A stretch of DNA of 64,000 nt from NCBI GenBank assembly GCA_035546035.1, contig DASZXC010000008.1, forward strand, positions 188,265 to 252,264, written 5' to 3'. This document shows positions 12,434 through 15,199 of this stretch, piece after piece (within the stretch, counting starts at the first letter, position 1; every line of letters begins with the position of its first letter). This stretch comes from Minisyncoccota bacterium (GTDB lineage: Bacteria; Patescibacteriota; Minisyncoccia; Phycocordibacterales; UBA6065). Under the pieces are notes generated by a model. That model searched no databases. It worked only from the letters and a program-made list of their open reading frames with translations, and was not told the origin of the DNA. Both the position numbers and the translations under genes were made by a program.

Positions 12434-13529
12434 TTATCGGCTTTTCCAAAACAGAAACTGATTTTTCAGATCTTCTGAGAATTCGTGCGCGTCGGCATGA
12501 GACAGAACGCCGAGATAGGACTGGAGTGACGCGGAAAGATTGTCTTCAGTCACTTCACCGCTTTGATACTGCTTCACAGTCCACTTCAACTTCCGTATCA
12601 TCCTCTTTTTCGTCTTTGTGCGAACCGCAATGCGATGCGGCAGGATGATATAGCCGAGGAAGTCGATTCCTTGACTAGATTTTCTAATGGTAACTTTCTT
12701 TGGATGCAGATTCAGCCTCAGCTTTTCCCTGAGGAAATGCTTGATTTTTGGCACGAGCGATTTCAGATAGCTGGCATCGTCTGATATGATGACAAAATCG
12801 TCCGTGTAGCGCGCATAATATTTCTCTTTCAGCTCATGCTTAACGAACTGGTCAAACTCATTCATATACACGTTAGCGAAAAGCTGGCTCGTCAGGTTGC
12901 CTATAGGTATGCCTGTTCGGCGCGAAGCGCCGAAAGTACTCTCTCTCTCTCTCTCTCTCTCTCTCTCTCTCTCTCTCGCAAGTTCCGCGAACGTAGCTCG
13001 TCACGACTTCTTCGAGGAGCCGCATCGTCTGCGGATCTTTAATTCTCTTTTTCAAAATTTCAATAAGGAAATCCTGGTCGACGCTGTCAAAGAATTTCTG
13101 TACGTCGCACTTGAGTGCATAGCACGGCCGCGTGTAGTTTTTGCTGACTTTTCTGATGGCATCACGGATATACATGACGCCTCGATGAGTTCCTTTGCCA
13201 ATACGGCAAGAGAAAGATGCGGGAATATAGACCGGCTCAAATATATAAATCAGCACTTTGAAAATCGCATGGTGGAGCACCCTGTCGTGCACCGTGGCCT
13301 TGTGGATTCGTCGAAGCTTTGGGTCATGGATCCAGAATCCTCTGTATGGCCCGTGTTTGTACGTTCCATTCTTCAAATCCCTATACAGATCAAAAATATT
13401 TTGCTCAAGATCAAGCTCGAATTCCATCACGTCGGGCTTGTTCTTCTTGTCGGATTTGAAAACTTCCCATGCGTCAAAGAGCGTCTGGGGAGAAATTATC
13501 GACCAATATAAATCTTTATATATTTTCAT
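12434..13529 (-). CDS. DGR reverse transcriptase, reading frame split by a (CT)19 simple-sequence repeat
   Basis: N-terminus (DLYWSIISPQTLFDAWEVF...GTYKHGPYRGF) resembles DGR RTs. Motifs RIHKATVHDRVLHHAIF and ALKCDVQKFFDSVD are present. After the repeat, the +1 frame continues with the DGR-specific motif 4 GIPIGNLTSQLFANVY and YxDD (YTDDFVI). ORF A is 12873..13529 and ORF B is 12434..12871. One extra AG unit would fuse them into about 365 aa. Confidence 0.8.
12939..12976. repeat. (CT)19 dinucleotide microsatellite inside the RT coding sequence (encodes ERERER... on the minus strand)
   Basis: Counted directly in the sequence. It sits at the ORF A/ORF B junction of the RT. Confidence 0.9.
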
Positions 13530-13880
13530 ATGAACGACCTAGACATTCCCATATTCAAGAAATCCTATAATCTCTACAAAGATTTCTATGCTCTCCGCCT
13601 ATCGGTGCCGAAGCAAGATCGCTATACTCTCTGGCAGAAATGCGAGAGTCTACTCGTTGAAGTGCTCGAAGGCATCCTTTTCGCGAGCCAACAGTCGAAA
13701 TTGGAGAAATTACCGACTTTGGAGAAGACGAGTGTCAAACTGAACTTTCTCCGCGTCTGTATCCGTCTCATGAAGGACATCAAGGCAATCGATTCCAAGA
13801 AGTACATCGTGATCGAGGCGAATCTCGATGAGATCGGAAGAATGCTCGGAGGCTGGATAAAATCCACGAAGGGACTCTAA
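13530..13880 (+). CDS. avd: DGR accessory variability determinant (Avd; four-helix-bundle / 23S-IVS protein family)
   Basis: 116 aa with a C-terminus ANLDEIGRMLGGWIKS that closely resembles the Avd/IVS-protein signature. It is transcribed divergently, back-to-back with the RT (CATATG shared by both start codons). Confidence 0.65.
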   Translation: MNDLDIPIFKKSYNLYKDFYALRLSVPKQDRYTLWQKCESLLVEVLEGILFASQQSKLEKLPTLEKTSVKLNFLRVCIRLMKDIKAIDSKKYIVIEANLDEIGRMLGGWIKSTKGL

Positions 13881-13883
13881 CAG

Positions 13884-13905
13884 AAAACCCACATATGTGG
13901 GTTTT
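13884..13905 (+). terminator. hairpin AAAACCCACATATGTGGGTTTT downstream of avd
   Basis: Perfect palindrome, T-rich on both sides. Confidence 0.5.
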
Positions 13906-13926
13906 CTCGGGATAGAGCTATGACTG

Positions 13927-14042
13927 CCGGGCAGCCGACACGCCGATGTTGCCATTGTGGTTGTCGTCGTTCCAGTTGTTGACGTTGAGACCCTTGGAAT
14001 CGAAGTTGCCGACGTTGACACGATTGCCGTCCGAGTCGAGAT
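13927..14042 (-). repeat. DGR template repeat (TR)
   Basis: 116 bp matching the VR at 14402..14517. Its coding-sense strand is adenine/AAC-rich (encodes ...NVGNFDSKGLNVNNWNDDNHNGNIGVSAAR). It is not part of any intact ORF. Confidence 0.8.
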
Positions 14043-14322
14043 ATTGCCCGTTTCCGTCCATGACACCGAGATTTGAGGTTTACTACCTTTGCAGGTCTAT
14101 ATCCTCTCATCTCTGAATTTTATTCGAGAGTAGCTTTCGTCTGAAAGCACCTCCTCTAGAAACGGGCAAGAAGTTCTCTCTATCCTCAAATCGCGCTCTG
14201 CCGTAATCCATAGACTACTAGCACTCTGGCGACACCAAAAAGGTGAGATATCTCGCGAACTTGAACCGTGATCCAAGCTACATGAGCAAGATGCGGATAT
14301 GATACCAAATTTTTATAAAAAA

Positions 14323-14354
14323 GAGGCTTCGCAAAAAAATTTTCGCGAAGCCTC
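14323..14354 (-). terminator. rho-independent terminator of the DGR target gene (10-bp stem GAGGCTTCGC/GCGAAGCCTC plus U-tract)
   Basis: Perfect stem followed by a T-run on the minus strand, downstream of the stop at 14393. Confidence 0.55.
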
Positions 14355-14392
14355 AAGGATTCAAGAGGGACAAGCCCTCAAGGGATCAAGAA

Positions 14393-15199
14393 TCACTGCT
14401 TCCGGGCAGCCGACACGCCGATGTGGCCATGGTGGAGGCCGTCGCTCCAGTCGCCGACGTTGAGACCCTCGGAATCGAAGCCGCCGACGCGGACACGACC
14501 GCCGCCCGAGTCGAGACTGGAAGTCCGAACGTAGACGTCTTCGAAGAGTCGGACACCACGAACCTCGAAATAGGTCGTGATGAACCAGCTCATCTCGGCG
14601 GCGTTCGGCACAATCTCGACTTTGGACAGGAGCTTGGTCTGCTCCTTCCACGTTTTGTTGGTCGAATTCGAGACGGGCGTCTTCTTGATGGCCATCCATC
14701 CCGACGACGTTTTGTCCTCGCGAGCGAACGTCTCCTTGTCTTCGGCATACCATCCGCCCGACTTCGAGTAGAAGTGGGCTGACTGGATCTCCCGAATATC
14801 GAGTGTCGACAGTGCCGTGGGCGGTGCGGGGATGACGGCGTAGCCGTTCTCCTTGCACCACGTGAGCACTTCTTCCGACGGCAGACTTTCGGCGAGGGCC
14901 GTGATCTGTTCGTCGGTGTAGACGATCCCTTTGCGAGCCTTGGCGACTTCCTCCGGCGTGATGAAATCCTCGCCGAGGATTGACTGTGCCAGTGCGTAGT
15001 CGGGTGCTTTGGCCGAGAAGCGACGGATGCCCTGTGCAAGATACGCGGCGAAGCCGGCATTCTCGTTCAGGCGTTGTGCGCTGTCGTCGTCGAGGTTTGC
15101 TTTGTCATATGCAGACCCGACGGTGGACATGAACTTGAGACCTTTGGGGTCCCGATGCGTAACGGTAACAGACGGGGACAATGGTTTCATTGGCGACAT
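14393..15199 (-). CDS. DGR variable (target) protein with a C-terminal lectin-like VR-encoded tail
   Basis: The C-terminal 40 aa (…GGRVRVGGFDSEGLNVGDWSDGLHHGHIGVSAARKQ) are encoded by the VR. This segment aligns with the TR with 17 mismatches, all at TR adenines. No N-terminal signal peptide is seen; the start is uncertain. Confidence 0.75.
   Translation of the reverse strand: MSPMKPLSPSVTVTHRDPKGLKFMSTVGSAYDKANLDDDSAQRLNENAGFAAYLAQGIRRFSAKAPDYALAQSILGEDFITPEEVAKARKGIVYTDEQITALAESLPSEEVLTWCKENGYAVIPAPPTALSTLDIREIQSAHFYSKSGGWYAEDKETFAREDKTSSGWMAIKKTPVSNSTNKTWKEQTKLLSKVEIVPNAAEMSWFITTYFEVRGVRLFEDVYVRTSSLDSGGGRVRVGGFDSEGLNVGDWSDGLHHGHIGVSAARKQ
14402..14517 (-). repeat. DGR variable repeat (VR) at the 3' end of the target gene
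   Basis: Base-by-base alignment with the TR. The substitutions occur only where the TR has A on the coding strand (plus-strand T changed to G, C or A at 17 sites). Confidence 0.8.

What the first reader, a model, noticed from the sequence alone, without database searches (positions are those of the whole stretch)
12434..15199. Complete diversity-generating retroelement (RT, Avd, TR, VR) inside a phage-like integrative module
The TR (13927-14042) and the VR at the 3' end of the target gene (14402-14517) align over 116 bp with 17 substitutions. Every substitution falls where the TR coding (minus) strand has an adenine: plus-strand T changes to G, C or A at 13950, 13956, 13961, 13962, 13964, 13970, 13977, 13979, 13980, 13995, 14006, 14007, 14015, 14016, 14024, 14025 and 14030. 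The TR is AAC-rich and encodes NVGNFDSKGLNVNNWNDDNHNGN; the VR encodes a diversified GGRVRVGGFDSEGLNVGDWSDGLHHGH followed by a conserved ...IGVSAAR, as in lectin-fold DGR targets. The adjacent RT has the DGR-specific motif 4 (PIGNLTSQ) and YTDDF, and an Avd-like four-helix-bundle gene is present. A-specific mutagenesis is the defining DGR signature. The element lies between a serine integrase and terminase genes.
Basis: partly seen in the sequence, partly recalled or inferred. Interest (0 to 1): 0.8.

Follow-up and report, generated by a model that had tools for sequence, protein, structure and literature searches.

The report
DGR whose reverse transcriptase carries a slippery repeat
This is a real, recently active diversity-generating retroelement of a Patescibacteria (CPR) bacterium, but its reverse-transcriptase gene is knocked out of frame by a (GA)19 microsatellite that recurs at the same spot, in variable length and mostly out of frame, in many related elements, which suggests a previously undescribed on/off switch for targeted hypermutation.

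Summary
TR (13927-14041) and VR (14402-14516) align without gaps, and all 17 mismatches sit at TR adenines on the minus strand (P ~6e-13). An independent public contig, 99.3% identical over 2,282 nt, differs at 17 positions. Sixteen of them are adenine-templated VR positions, so retrohoming was recent.

Avd (Pfam bAvd) and the RT (best structural match: Bordetella DGR RT, 8ub7) are present. The layout target-TR-inverted avd-RT is the standard Patescibacteria one.

The element is not "complete" as assembled. The RT is split into two ORFs by a (GA)19 tract (12939-12976) between RT motifs A and B. One more unit, or two fewer, restores a 365-aa RT.

The tract is not a one-off:
- At least 120 metagenome contigs carry (GA)8-25 at the same site.
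- Of 78 distinct alleles, 14 are in frame and 64 out of frame, in both shift classes, and the RT halves are otherwise intact.
- The alleles examined have adenine-diversified VRs.
- Contigs with identical flanks differ only in tract length and VR.

The most likely reading is a slipped-strand phase switch, or dimmer, on DGR activity. I found no paper describing this.

The phage-like context is only partly supported: integrase, TerS and TerL are present, but no virion genes were found.

The parts
14393..15199 (-). DGR target gene (268 aa), VR at its 3' end. No Pfam domain. The family is widespread in Patescibacteria.
   Evidence: ORF. No Pfam hit. 261 homologues, mostly 260-270 aa from Patescibacteria MAGs. 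AF2 model pLDDT 71; the C-terminal half weakly resembles FGE/CLec folds.
14402..14516 (-). Variable region (VR). It ends two codons before the stop codon.
   Evidence: 115-nt ungapped match to TR, with 17 mismatches all at TR adenines. 16 of 17 differences to contig L081 fall here, all at adenine-templated positions.
14323..14354 (-). Intrinsic-terminator-like hairpin (14-bp stem plus T run) about 40 nt downstream of the target stop codon.
14117..14145 (-). Sigma-70-like promoter match about 75 nt upstream of TR. Candidate TR-RNA promoter; weak, consensus match only.
   Evidence: 9 of 12 hexamer matches. Its role is inference.
13927..14041 (-). Template region (TR): 29 adenines, all at codon positions 1 or 2, and 8 AAC codons. 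The last ~20 nt are A-free and GC-rich and identical to VR (IMH-like).
13882..13907 (.). Perfect 26-nt palindrome between the avd stop codon and the 3' end of TR. Likely a bidirectional terminator for the convergent avd and TR transcripts.
   Evidence: Sequence. Forms the strongest hairpin in the RNA fold. Function is inferred.
13530..13880 (+). avd (116 aa), on the strand opposite to RT, TR and target. Its start codon abuts the RT start codon.
   Evidence: Pfam bAvd 2.7e-17. The same inverted placement occurs in 75 of 80 related genome loci. Wu et al. 2018 describe a B3 architecture that makes up 90% of CPR DGRs.
12978..13529 (-). RT N-terminal part (motifs 1 to 3/A, KCDVQKFFDSVD), upstream of the tract.
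   Evidence: Pfam RVT_1. Alignment A1. As assembled, this frame runs through the tract and stops at 12873.
12939..12976 (-). (GA)19 microsatellite, read as (ER)n, in the loop between RT motif 3/A and motif 4/B. It puts the two RT halves in different frames; +1 unit or -2 units restores the frame.
   Evidence: Homologous tracts in relatives. The loop is low-confidence in the AF2 model.
12434..12938 (-). RT C-terminal part (motif 4/B GIPIGNLTSQ, motif 5/C YTDDF, motifs 6-7 and thumb), in the frame shifted by 1 relative to the N-terminal part.
   Evidence: The corrected RT model's best PDB match is the Bordetella DGR RT 8ub7_A (E 3e-22, TM 0.78/0.86).

Best explanation
The locus is a Patescibacteria-type diversity-generating retroelement. 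TR RNA is copied by the RT-Avd complex with misincorporation opposite adenines, and the cDNA replaces the VR at the 3' end of a 268-aa target gene.

The element was active very recently. In this assembly, however, the RT is out of frame because of a (GA)19 microsatellite in a surface loop between RT motifs A and B.

The same tract, in lengths of about 8 to 25 units, sits at the same site in many related RTs. It changes length faster than the flanks accumulate substitutions, and it leaves most natural alleles out of frame while both RT halves stay intact.

I conclude that the tract most likely acts as a slipped-strand (contingency-locus) switch. It turns RT production, and hence mutagenic retrohoming, heritably but reversibly OFF or ON. 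It could instead dim expression if frameshift suppression is leaky. Either way a lineage could diversify its target and then lock in a variant.

Shown here: DGR identity, recent VR rewriting, the frame break, tract recurrence, tract length polymorphism, and the predominance of otherwise intact out-of-frame alleles.

Inferred: reversibility, the switching rate, loss of RT activity in OFF alleles, and any adaptive value.

My estimates: ~0.97 that this is a genuine DGR; ~0.9 that the tract is a genuinely hypervariable, frame-breaking feature of the lineage; ~0.55-0.6 that it functions as a reversible regulatory switch.
For: DGR identity:
- 17 of 17 TR/VR mismatches are at TR adenines, P 5.9e-13.
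- TR adenines occur only at codon positions 1 and 2, with 8 AAC codons.
- Avd matches Pfam bAvd.
- The corrected RT keeps every invariant residue of alignment A1, and its model best matches the Bordetella DGR RT 8ub7.

Recent activity: L081 is 99.26% identical over 2,282 nt. Sixteen of its 17 differences are in the VR at adenine-templated sites.

Frame break: (GA)19 at 12939-12976. Adding one unit or removing two restores a 365- or 363-aa RT. It is the only microsatellite in the 64 kb.

Recurrence:
- (ER)n is found at the same loop in homologues.
- The metagenome scan for (GA)8+ just upstream of PIGNLTSQ hit the 120-locus limit. Zero matches are expected by chance in the window.
- GA-run length is bimodal: at most 6 nt, or at least 17 nt.

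Frame states:
- 78 dereplicated alleles gave 14 in frame, 35 at shift 1 and 29 at shift 2. The binomial test against 1/3 gives p = 0.0037.
- The same method gives 77/77 and 70/70 in frame for the best-hit genome and viral RT sets.

Not decayed: in out-of-frame alleles the C-half is full length in 53/60 and the N-half in 54/61. This matches in-frame alleles, at 11/13 and 10/12.

Still DGRs: among tract-bearing loci with enough upstream DNA for a TR/VR search, most have adenine-biased TR/VR pairs with 8-25 substitutions, in all three frame states; a few gave no convincing pair.

Hypervariability:
- L106 (20 nt, in frame) versus L088, L116 and L201 (18 nt, out of frame) shows 0 differences in 494 nt downstream and 1,496 nt upstream. 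Differences start only about 1.5 kb upstream, with about 20 clustered at the VR.
- Five replicate sets of contigs reproduce the same tract length.

Independent database: among the 120 best relatives of the N-terminal ORF, 36 are N-terminal RT fragments that end in (ER)n plus an out-of-frame tail. The tails look like two recurring types, consistent with the two shifted frames. Many lie on contigs of 10-200 kb.

Tolerance: the tract lies in a low-confidence loop (residues 181-205) of an otherwise confident RT model.
Against: - No reads are available, so tract heterogeneity within this window's own population is untested. The window's (GA)19 count could be off by a unit.
- Reversibility is inferred from the distribution of alleles, not observed.
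- In-frame alleles are rarer than the 1/3 expected from neutral cycling. That fits selection for OFF, but it equally fits repeated one-way inactivation.
- The controls showing 100% in-frame RTs come from 'best-hit' sets, which favour intact genes.
- The NJ tree implies about 24 gains or losses of the tract, so its evolutionary history is unclear.
- Out-of-frame alleles might still yield some RT through frameshift suppression, as reported for (AG)n in a Mycoplasma mod gene. That would make this a dimmer rather than a switch.
Confidence: 0.6

Rival explanations
1. This is an ordinary intact DGR. The frame break in the window is a sequencing or assembly miscount of a dinucleotide repeat, and the RT is really in frame.
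For: Dinucleotide repeats are prone to PCR stutter. A single unit restores the frame. A Logan contig carrying the same avd breaks inside the tract, which shows that assemblers struggle there. Everything else about the RT is intact.
Against: Random miscounts do not explain 64 of 78 distinct alleles being out of frame across many projects and assemblers. Nor do they explain five sets of independent contigs reproducing the same out-of-frame length, or the dozens of N-terminal fragments with out-of-frame tails in NCBI, ENA, JGI and Logan data. Tracts of 16-50 nt are far shorter than the reads. The Logan break is expected for k=31 and says nothing about tract length.
Confidence: 0.1
2. One-way decay. 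The (GA)n tract is just a mutational hazard that repeatedly kills RT genes. The out-of-frame alleles are young pseudogenes of DGRs on their way to loss, with no regulatory role.
For: Inactivated DGR RTs with still-clean TR/VR pairs are known: nonsense mutations, IS insertions and frameshifts (Schillinger et al. 2012, PMC3521204). In-frame alleles are fewer than 1/3. The tract is patchily distributed on the RT tree.
Against: Out-of-frame alleles show no more secondary lesions than in-frame ones. Their TR/VR pairs remain almost purely adenine-biased. The tract persists at one site in many divergent RTs, often with conserved flanks of the form ACG(AG)nTA. With a dinucleotide unit every frame is one or two steps from ON, so reversion should be about as frequent as inactivation. 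Near-identical populations include both ON and OFF alleles.
Confidence: 0.15
3. Recoding. RNA-polymerase slippage or ribosomal frameshifting on the long (GA)n tract yields some full-length RT from every genotype. The tract would then set a low, noisy RT level rather than a binary state.
For: (GA)n has no stop codon in any frame and encodes (ER)n in all three. Frame-dependent frameshift suppression on (AG)n repeats has been reported for a Mycoplasma bovis mod gene fragment expressed in E. coli (bioRxiv 10.64898/2026.04.01.715767). OFF alleles dominate, yet their VRs are diversified.
Against: Both shift classes occur at similar frequency (35 versus 29), so no single programmed shift can rescue all alleles. 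No slippery heptamer or stimulatory structure was identified. There are no expression data. This rival is not exclusive of the phase-switch model.
Confidence: 0.15

Closest known systems
Patescibacteria (CPR) DGRs: the 'B3' cassette architecture of Wu et al. 2018 (PMC5758913) and DGR clade 2 of Roux et al. 2021 (PMC8144416)
   Same: RT relatives at up to 65% identity are almost all from Patescibacteria MAGs. The order is the same: target with 3' VR, then TR, inverted avd and RT. The target has no recognised Pfam domain. The context is cellular and chromosomal.
   Different: The RT carries a long (GA)n microsatellite that breaks the frame. The sections of these surveys that I searched do not mention it. 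Wu et al. compiled 'putatively functional' DGRs. An RT split at the tract would probably not register as a full-length RT in such surveys; that is my inference.
Bordetella phage BPP-1 DGR (mtd-avd-TR-brt), the prototype
   Same: Adenine-specific TR-to-VR transfer. An Avd accessory protein. An RT with the [I/L/V]GxxxSQ motif 4 and YxDD. The RT model's best structural match is bRT (8ub7, 32% identity, TM 0.78/0.86). There is a GC-rich, A-free 3' end shared by TR and VR.
   Different: avd is inverted and lies between TR and RT, so the region downstream of TR is antisense to avd rather than the Sp spacer next to brt. The target is a small protein with no detectable phage tail-fibre features. The host is a CPR bacterium. 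The RT gene is gated by a microsatellite.
Simple-sequence-repeat contingency loci, for example the phase-variable Type III mod genes with (AG)n in Mycoplasma bovis (bioRxiv 10.64898/2026.04.01.715767)
   Same: A long perfect repeat whose unit is not a multiple of three lies inside an ORF. Repeat number differs between otherwise identical sequences. ON and OFF frames coexist in nature with otherwise intact genes.
   Different: The gated gene here is the reverse transcriptase of a targeted hypermutation system, not a surface antigen or methyltransferase. The organisms are uncultured environmental CPR bacteria. Switching rate and phenotype are unmeasured.
DGRs with inactivated RT but intact TR/VR (Schillinger et al. 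2012, PMC3521204)
   Same: An RT ORF disrupted while the TR/VR pair still shows only adenine substitutions, implying recent loss of RT function.
   Different: Those were sporadic, lineage-specific lesions: a nonsense mutation, an IS insertion, a frameshift. Here the lesion is always at one homologous, length-variable repeat shared by many divergent elements, and is in principle reversible.

Membership tests
Diversity-generating retroelement (DGR) | TR/VR repeat pair whose differences are confined to TR adenines | tested here: met
   17 of 17 mismatches at TR adenines over 115 nt, P 5.9e-13.
Diversity-generating retroelement (DGR) | DGR-clade reverse transcriptase with catalytic YxDD and motif 4 [I/L/V]GxxxSQ, encoded as an intact gene | tested here: inconclusive
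   All motifs and all family-invariant residues are present, and the model matches bRT 8ub7. As assembled, however, the ORF is split by a frameshift in (GA)19.
Diversity-generating retroelement (DGR) | Accessory variability determinant (Avd) next to the RT | tested here: met
   Pfam bAvd 2.7e-17, above the curated cut-off. It lies on the opposite strand, as in 75 of 80 relatives.
Diversity-generating retroelement (DGR) | VR at the 3' end of a target ORF, with TR adenines placed at codon positions 1 and 2 (AAC-rich) | tested here: met
   VR ends 2 codons before the stop codon. The 29 TR adenines split 12 and 17 at positions 1 and 2, none at position 3, with 8 AAC codons.
Diversity-generating retroelement (DGR) | Evidence of ongoing or recent mutagenic retrohoming (VR varies between populations at A-templated sites only) | tested here: met
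   L081 versus the window: 17 differences in 2,282 nt, of which 16 are in the VR, all at adenine-templated positions. The same pattern holds for L106 versus L088.
Diversity-generating retroelement (DGR) | IMH-like GC-rich 3' boundary and a hairpin downstream of VR | tested here: inconclusive
   The last ~20 nt of TR and VR are A-free, GC-rich and identical, and homology ends abruptly. Downstream there is a small 5-bp hairpin and a strong terminator hairpin. Wu et al. find such repeats in only 34% of DGRs.
Diversity-generating retroelement (DGR) | Variable protein with a C-type-lectin/FGE-like fold displaying the VR | tested here: inconclusive
Patescibacteria DGR lineage (Roux clade 2; Wu B3 architecture) | RT clusters with Patescibacteria RTs, and the cassette order is target-TR-avd(inverted)-RT | tested here: met
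   Best RT hits are 56-66% identical and, where named by a source, are named Paceibacterota, Parcubacteria and similar. avd is inverted directly upstream of RT in 75 of 80 loci. Literature.
SSR-mediated phase-variable (contingency) gene | Long perfect repeat, unit not divisible by 3, inside the ORF | tested here: met
   (GA)19, 38-39 nt, 100% perfect, and the only such tract in 64 kb.
SSR-mediated phase-variable (contingency) gene | Repeat number differs between otherwise identical sequences | tested here: met
   Shown in relatives. L106 (20 nt) versus L088, L116 and L201 (18 nt) has 0 differences in about 2 kb of flanks apart from the VR. Other close pairs differ by 4 to 8 nt. Not testable for the window's own population, since no reads are available.
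SSR-mediated phase-variable (contingency) gene | Both ON and OFF frames occur naturally in otherwise intact genes | tested here: met
   14 in frame and 64 out of frame among distinct alleles, with halves intact in about 88% of both classes. 36 N-terminal fragments with out-of-frame tails appear in the protein database.
SSR-mediated phase-variable (contingency) gene | High-frequency reversible switching with a phenotypic consequence | not testable with these tools
   This needs read-level population data, time series or experiments.
Prophage or integrative phage-derived element | Integrase plus packaging and virion structural genes between attachment sites | tested here: inconclusive
   Serine recombinase, TerS, TerL, a CI/LexA-like repressor and ParB-methyltransferases were found. 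No capsid, portal or tail family appeared among the ORFs scanned. No convincing att repeat flanks the module.

The most novel reading that the evidence does not exclude
Many Patescibacteria DGRs may be two-tier hypermutation systems. A hypermutable (GA)n contingency tract inside the RT gene stochastically and heritably gates the retroelement. Most cells would then carry a silenced DGR with a 'locked' target variant, while rare revertants re-open adenine mutagenesis. This would be a diversify-then-fix bet-hedging strategy, invisible to DGR surveys if they require an intact RT ORF.
Probability: 0.5. Interest if true: 0.8.

Novelty: new variant of a known kind. Interest (0 to 1): 0.68.

Why it matters
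How cellular DGRs are kept in check is an open question. Roux et al. 2021 classify DGRs as active or inactive across biomes, and a 2021 review suggests that hypermutation in cellular DGRs may be induced under stress. No switch has been described.

A microsatellite inside the RT gene would be a simple, heritable and reversible control. It would couple the two classical bacterial routes to localised hypermutation: contingency loci and retroelement-guided diversification.

The idea is directly testable with existing metagenomes. One would compare tract-length spectra with VR diversity per population.

It also has a practical consequence. RT genes split at this tract are common. Pipelines that demand a full-length RT probably under-count DGRs in CPR bacteria or mislabel them as defunct, and CPR bacteria hold a large share of all known DGRs.

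Tried and rejected
1. I looked for additional VRs or remote targets in the window by matching TR at non-adenine positions on both strands. None was found.

2. I asked whether the inverted, abutting avd was unusual. It is the norm in this lineage and corresponds to a published architecture, so it is not a novelty.

3. I considered a functional split RT. In the window the C-terminal frame has no start codon upstream of motif B; the first is the GTG at 12871, after PIGNLTSQLFANV. A two-piece enzyme is therefore implausible.

4. I considered contig breaks at the tract as evidence of heterogeneity. Only 15 of 129 tracts lie within 150 nt of a contig end. The Logan break is expected from k=31. I did not use this as evidence.

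5. The viral-contig scan for the tract pattern found nothing. Only about 6 IMG/VR contigs carry RTs at 47% identity or more. This gives no support for a mainly phage-borne lineage.

7. Rfam found no known RNA family in the DGR itself.

8. Four literature searches combining DGR or Patescibacteria with SSR, phase variation or contingency loci found no report of a repeat-gated DGR RT. Paul et al. 2017 could not be read, so a mention there cannot be excluded.

9. I looked for the window's own tract in other assemblies. L081 ends before the tract, L207 ends inside it, and the exact C-terminal ORF is not on record.

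
Full report
**1. The observation**

At an offset of 475 nt, window 13927-14041 aligns without gaps to 14402-14516. Each is a plus-strand T in the TR, which is an adenine on the coding minus strand.

The TR has 29 T among 115 positions. 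The chance that all 17 mismatches fall on T is 5.9e-13. Read in the frame of the target ORF, all 29 TR adenines occupy codon positions 1 or 2 (12 and 17, none at position 3). There are 8 AAC codons. A scan of both strands for matches to the non-adenine positions of TR finds only TR and this one VR.

**2. The parts**

- The target is ORF 14393-15199 (minus strand, 268 aa). It has no Pfam domain.
- avd is 13530-13880 on the plus strand and matches Pfam bAvd at 2.7e-17.
- The RT is on the minus strand but is two ORFs, 12873-13529 and 12434-12871. Each matches half of Pfam RVT_1.
- The break is a perfect (CT)19 tract, (GA)19 on the RT strand, at 12939-12976. The N-terminal frame enters the tract and the C-terminal frame leaves it shifted by one.
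- Adding one GA unit or removing two gives a continuous RT of 365 or 363 aa.
- The corrected protein keeps every invariant residue of an 18-sequence family alignment. These include the motif A aspartate, GIPIGNLTSQ and YTDD.
- Its AlphaFold model (pLDDT 82.7) has the Bordetella DGR RT as its best PDB match (8ub7_A, E 3e-22, TM 0.78/0.86, 32% identity).

**3. Proof of recent activity**

A public 2,282-nt contig, L081 (DASZTH010000259.1), covers window 15580-13299 at 99.26% identity with no gaps. Of its 17 differences, 16 lie in the VR, and every one of those is templated by a TR adenine. The seventeenth is a single substitution in avd.

The VR has been rewritten while about 2.2 kb around it accumulated one substitution.

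**4. Whose element it is**

The RT has thousands of relatives: 7,304 proteins at E ≤ 1e-10 among the candidates scored. The best are 56-66% identical. Where a source names them, they come from Paceibacterota, Parcubacteria and other Patescibacteria (CPR) MAGs. The target family has 261 hits, mostly 260-270 aa, with the same taxonomic signature.

The rest of the window encodes PilB- and PilC-type pilus proteins, LigA and GatA, so it is a chromosome.

The odd-looking layout is the rule in this lineage. avd is inverted between TR and RT, with its ATG abutting the RT ATG. In 75 of 80 related genome loci avd is on the opposite strand directly upstream of RT. Wu et al. 2018 describe a 'B3' architecture that accounts for 90% of CPR DGRs and differs in avd/TR order and orientation. 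Roux et al. 2021 place the Patescibacteria DGRs in a cellular clade 2. As a DGR, then, this is a new member of a known kind.

**5. The microsatellite is not a private accident**

In the family alignment, many homologues carry ERERERE-type sequence in exactly the same loop, between motif 3/A (KCDVxKFF) and motif 4/B (PIGNLTSQ). In 80 genome loci, five have 17-31 nt of pure GA there and two have 9-10 nt. The rest have at most 6 nt, so the distribution is bimodal.

I then ran a frame-blind scan of public metagenome contigs for (GA)8 followed within 6-36 nt by the back-translated PIGNLTSQ motif. It reached its 120-locus limit. The same pattern occurs once in the window, with zero matches expected by chance. 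The tract is the only microsatellite in the 64 kb.

**6. Frame states in nature**

For each locus I compared the reading frames of motif A and motif B.

- Among 84 metagenome loci with both motifs visible, 14 are in frame, 38 are shifted by 1 and 32 by 2.
- After collapsing contigs whose flanks are at least 97% identical, 78 distinct alleles remain: 14, 35 and 29. In-frame alleles are fewer than the 1/3 expected from random cycling (binomial p = 0.0037).
- The same procedure of 77 evaluable genome-set RTs and 70 of 70 viral-set RTs in frame. Those sets were ranked by tblastn and therefore favour intact genes.
- Out-of-frame alleles are not decayed. The C-terminal half runs to the normal stop in 53 of 60 and the N-terminal half is normal in 54 of 61. 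The in-frame figures are indistinguishable, at 11 of 13 and 10 of 12.
- Most tract-bearing loci with enough upstream DNA for a TR/VR search have a TR/VR pair with 8-25 substitutions, mostly at least 84% at adenines. This holds in all three frame states. A few loci gave no convincing pair.

**7. The tract changes faster than its surroundings**

L106 carries 20 nt of GA and is in frame. L088, L116 and L201 carry 18 nt and are out of frame. The four contigs are otherwise identical over 494 nt downstream and 1,496 nt upstream of the tract, a span that covers the rest of RT, avd and TR. Differences start only about 1.5 kb upstream, where about 20 cluster at the VR; further out the sequences diverge.

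Other close pairs differ by 4 to 8 nt of tract. Conversely, five sets of independent contigs reproduce exactly the same tract length. That argues against random assembly miscounts.

**8. Independent confirmation from the protein database**

I searched with the window's N-terminal ORF. Among the 120 best hits, 68 are short, N-terminal-only RT proteins of about 170-340 aa. Of these:

- 36 end in (ER)≥3 followed by a tail that lacks motif B.
- The tails look like two recurring types, roughly ...YRQPxFPxFRQYLYE and ...KEYQLAI, consistent with the two shifted readings of the normal downstream sequence.
- 8 more stop inside the tract.
- Several others have shorter ER runs with the same kinds of tail.
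- Many sit on contigs of 10-200 kb from NCBI, ENA, JGI and Logan.

This ranking favours sequences that resemble the query's own tail. It therefore shows prevalence, not an unbiased ratio.

**9. Mechanistic reading**

A dinucleotide repeat reaches all three frames by single-unit steps, and (GA)n has no stop codon in any frame. In the RT model, residues 181-205, which are the tract and its flanks, form a low-confidence loop between two confident helices. In-frame alleles carry anything from 17 to 51 nt of tract. The insert therefore appears to be tolerated at variable length.

The simplest explanation is slipped-strand mispairing at a contingency tract that gates RT synthesis and hence retrohoming. 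The excess of OFF alleles would fit selection for silencing once a useful VR has been found, or a cost of constitutive adenine mutagenesis.

Three things are not shown: reversibility, the switching rate, and the loss of RT activity in OFF alleles. Leaky frameshift suppression, as reported for (AG)n in a Mycoplasma bovis mod gene fragment, could make the tract a dimmer rather than a switch. Repeated one-way inactivation cannot be excluded. Sporadic inactivated DGR RTs with clean TR/VR pairs have been noted before (Schillinger et al. 2012). The intact halves, the conserved position, the frequently conserved flanks of the form ACG(AG)nTA, and the coexistence of ON and OFF alleles in near-identical backgrounds all argue for something more than decay.

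The tract's history is unclear. A neighbour-joining tree of RT C-terminal halves needs about 24 state changes among 181 sequences.

**10. Other features of the cassette**

- A strong terminator-like hairpin follows the target gene (14354-14323, minus strand).
- A weak promoter-like match lies about 75 nt upstream of TR.
- A perfect 26-nt palindrome (13882-13907) sits between the avd stop codon and the 3' end of TR. It is the dominant hairpin in the fold of the TR transcript. I read it as a bidirectional terminator for the convergent avd and TR transcripts; that is inference.
- The last ~20 nt of TR and VR are A-free, GC-rich and identical, like the GC-rich part of an IMH. I could not define an IMH/IMH* pair.

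**11. The target**

Homologues that are 80% identical occur without adjacent RT or avd, next to cell-envelope genes.

**12. Context**

The DGR lies in a 4-35 kb island next to tRNA-Ser. The island holds a Shedu SduA gene, a Mutator-family transposase, an APH kinase, two paralogous serine recombinases, TerS, TerL, ParB-methyltransferases, a CI/LexA-like repressor and HTH regulators.

No capsid, portal or tail family was detected among the ORFs scanned, and no convincing att repeat flanks the module. 'Phage-derived integrative remnant or satellite-like element' is a fair description. 'Prophage' is not established.

**13. Novelty and verdict**

The DGR itself is an ordinary, well-supported member of the Patescibacteria lineage. 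What is new, as far as the searchable literature shows (Paul et al. 2017 could not be read), is a hypervariable (GA)n tract inside the RT gene. It recurs across the lineage and leaves most natural alleles out of frame but otherwise intact.

I rate this a new variant of a known kind, with an interest score of about 0.68.

Noticed in passing
window 18816-18952 (+) and 31362-31484 (+): Two full-length matches to the Rfam LOOT RNA (RF03000; 71 and 81 bits, gathering score 46). One lies in each of two tandem integrase-bearing modules.
   Followed up: no
window 9711-11042 (-) and 28598-29923 (-), with 21066-21572, 31884-32603, 22302-23576 and 32561-33895: Two paralogous serine recombinases, 72% nucleotide identity over 300 nt. 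Each is accompanied by a TerS-like gene and a ParB-N6/N4 methyltransferase, which suggests two related integrative elements in tandem. Repeats at 28427-28482/35368-35423 and at 28398-28419/34118-34139 may mark the ends of the second one.
   Followed up: partly
window 15380-15410, 16708-16738, 17800-17830: Three copies of a 31-nt element (77-100% identical) containing an internal inverted repeat, GAGAGT...ACTCTC. They are spaced between minus-strand genes just beyond the DGR target and may be operators or terminators.
   Followed up: no
window 5098-6294 (+), 7480-8613 (+), 8691-9662 (-): A Shedu defence gene (SduA C-terminal domain, 2e-35), a Mutator-family transposase (6e-85) and an APH-family kinase lie upstream of the integrase. 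The DGR therefore sits in a defence- and mobile-gene-rich island next to tRNA-Ser at 3861-3950.
   Followed up: no
window 13529/13530: The RT and avd start codons abut head to head with no spacer (cat|atg), so both promoters must lie inside the partner's coding sequence. avd lies on the opposite strand directly upstream of the RT in 75 of 80 related loci.
   Followed up: partly
window 13882-13907: A perfect 26-nt palindrome, AGAAAACCCACAT|ATGTGGGTTTTCT, starts 2 nt after the avd stop codon and ends 20 nt before the 3' end of TR. It is a candidate bidirectional terminator. This would leave a very short region downstream of TR compared with the Bordetella spacer.
   Followed up: partly
L185 about 1420-1477 and L150 about 45-104 (RT strand): Some relatives carry a composite (CT)n(GA)n tract at the same RT site. 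The two halves are self-complementary and could form a hairpin, and both halves differ in length between the two contigs.
   Followed up: no
L082-L086 (target homologue at, for example, L082 6001-6801): Target homologues 80% identical to the window's occur with no RT or avd within 6 kb, beside an MraY-like glycosyltransferase and a Mur ligase. They are either orphan or trans-acting targets, or non-diversified paralogues.
   Followed up: no
L138 586-778: One metagenome contig has two copies of the tract-plus-motif-B segment about 120 nt apart, with tracts of 21 and 23 nt. This is a local duplication inside an RT gene.
   Followed up: no
L207 1-24 (Logan contig from SRR12170516): A contig encoding an identical Avd ends inside the repeat. 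This identifies a public run that should contain this population for read-level analysis. The break itself is expected from k=31 assembly.
   Followed up: partly
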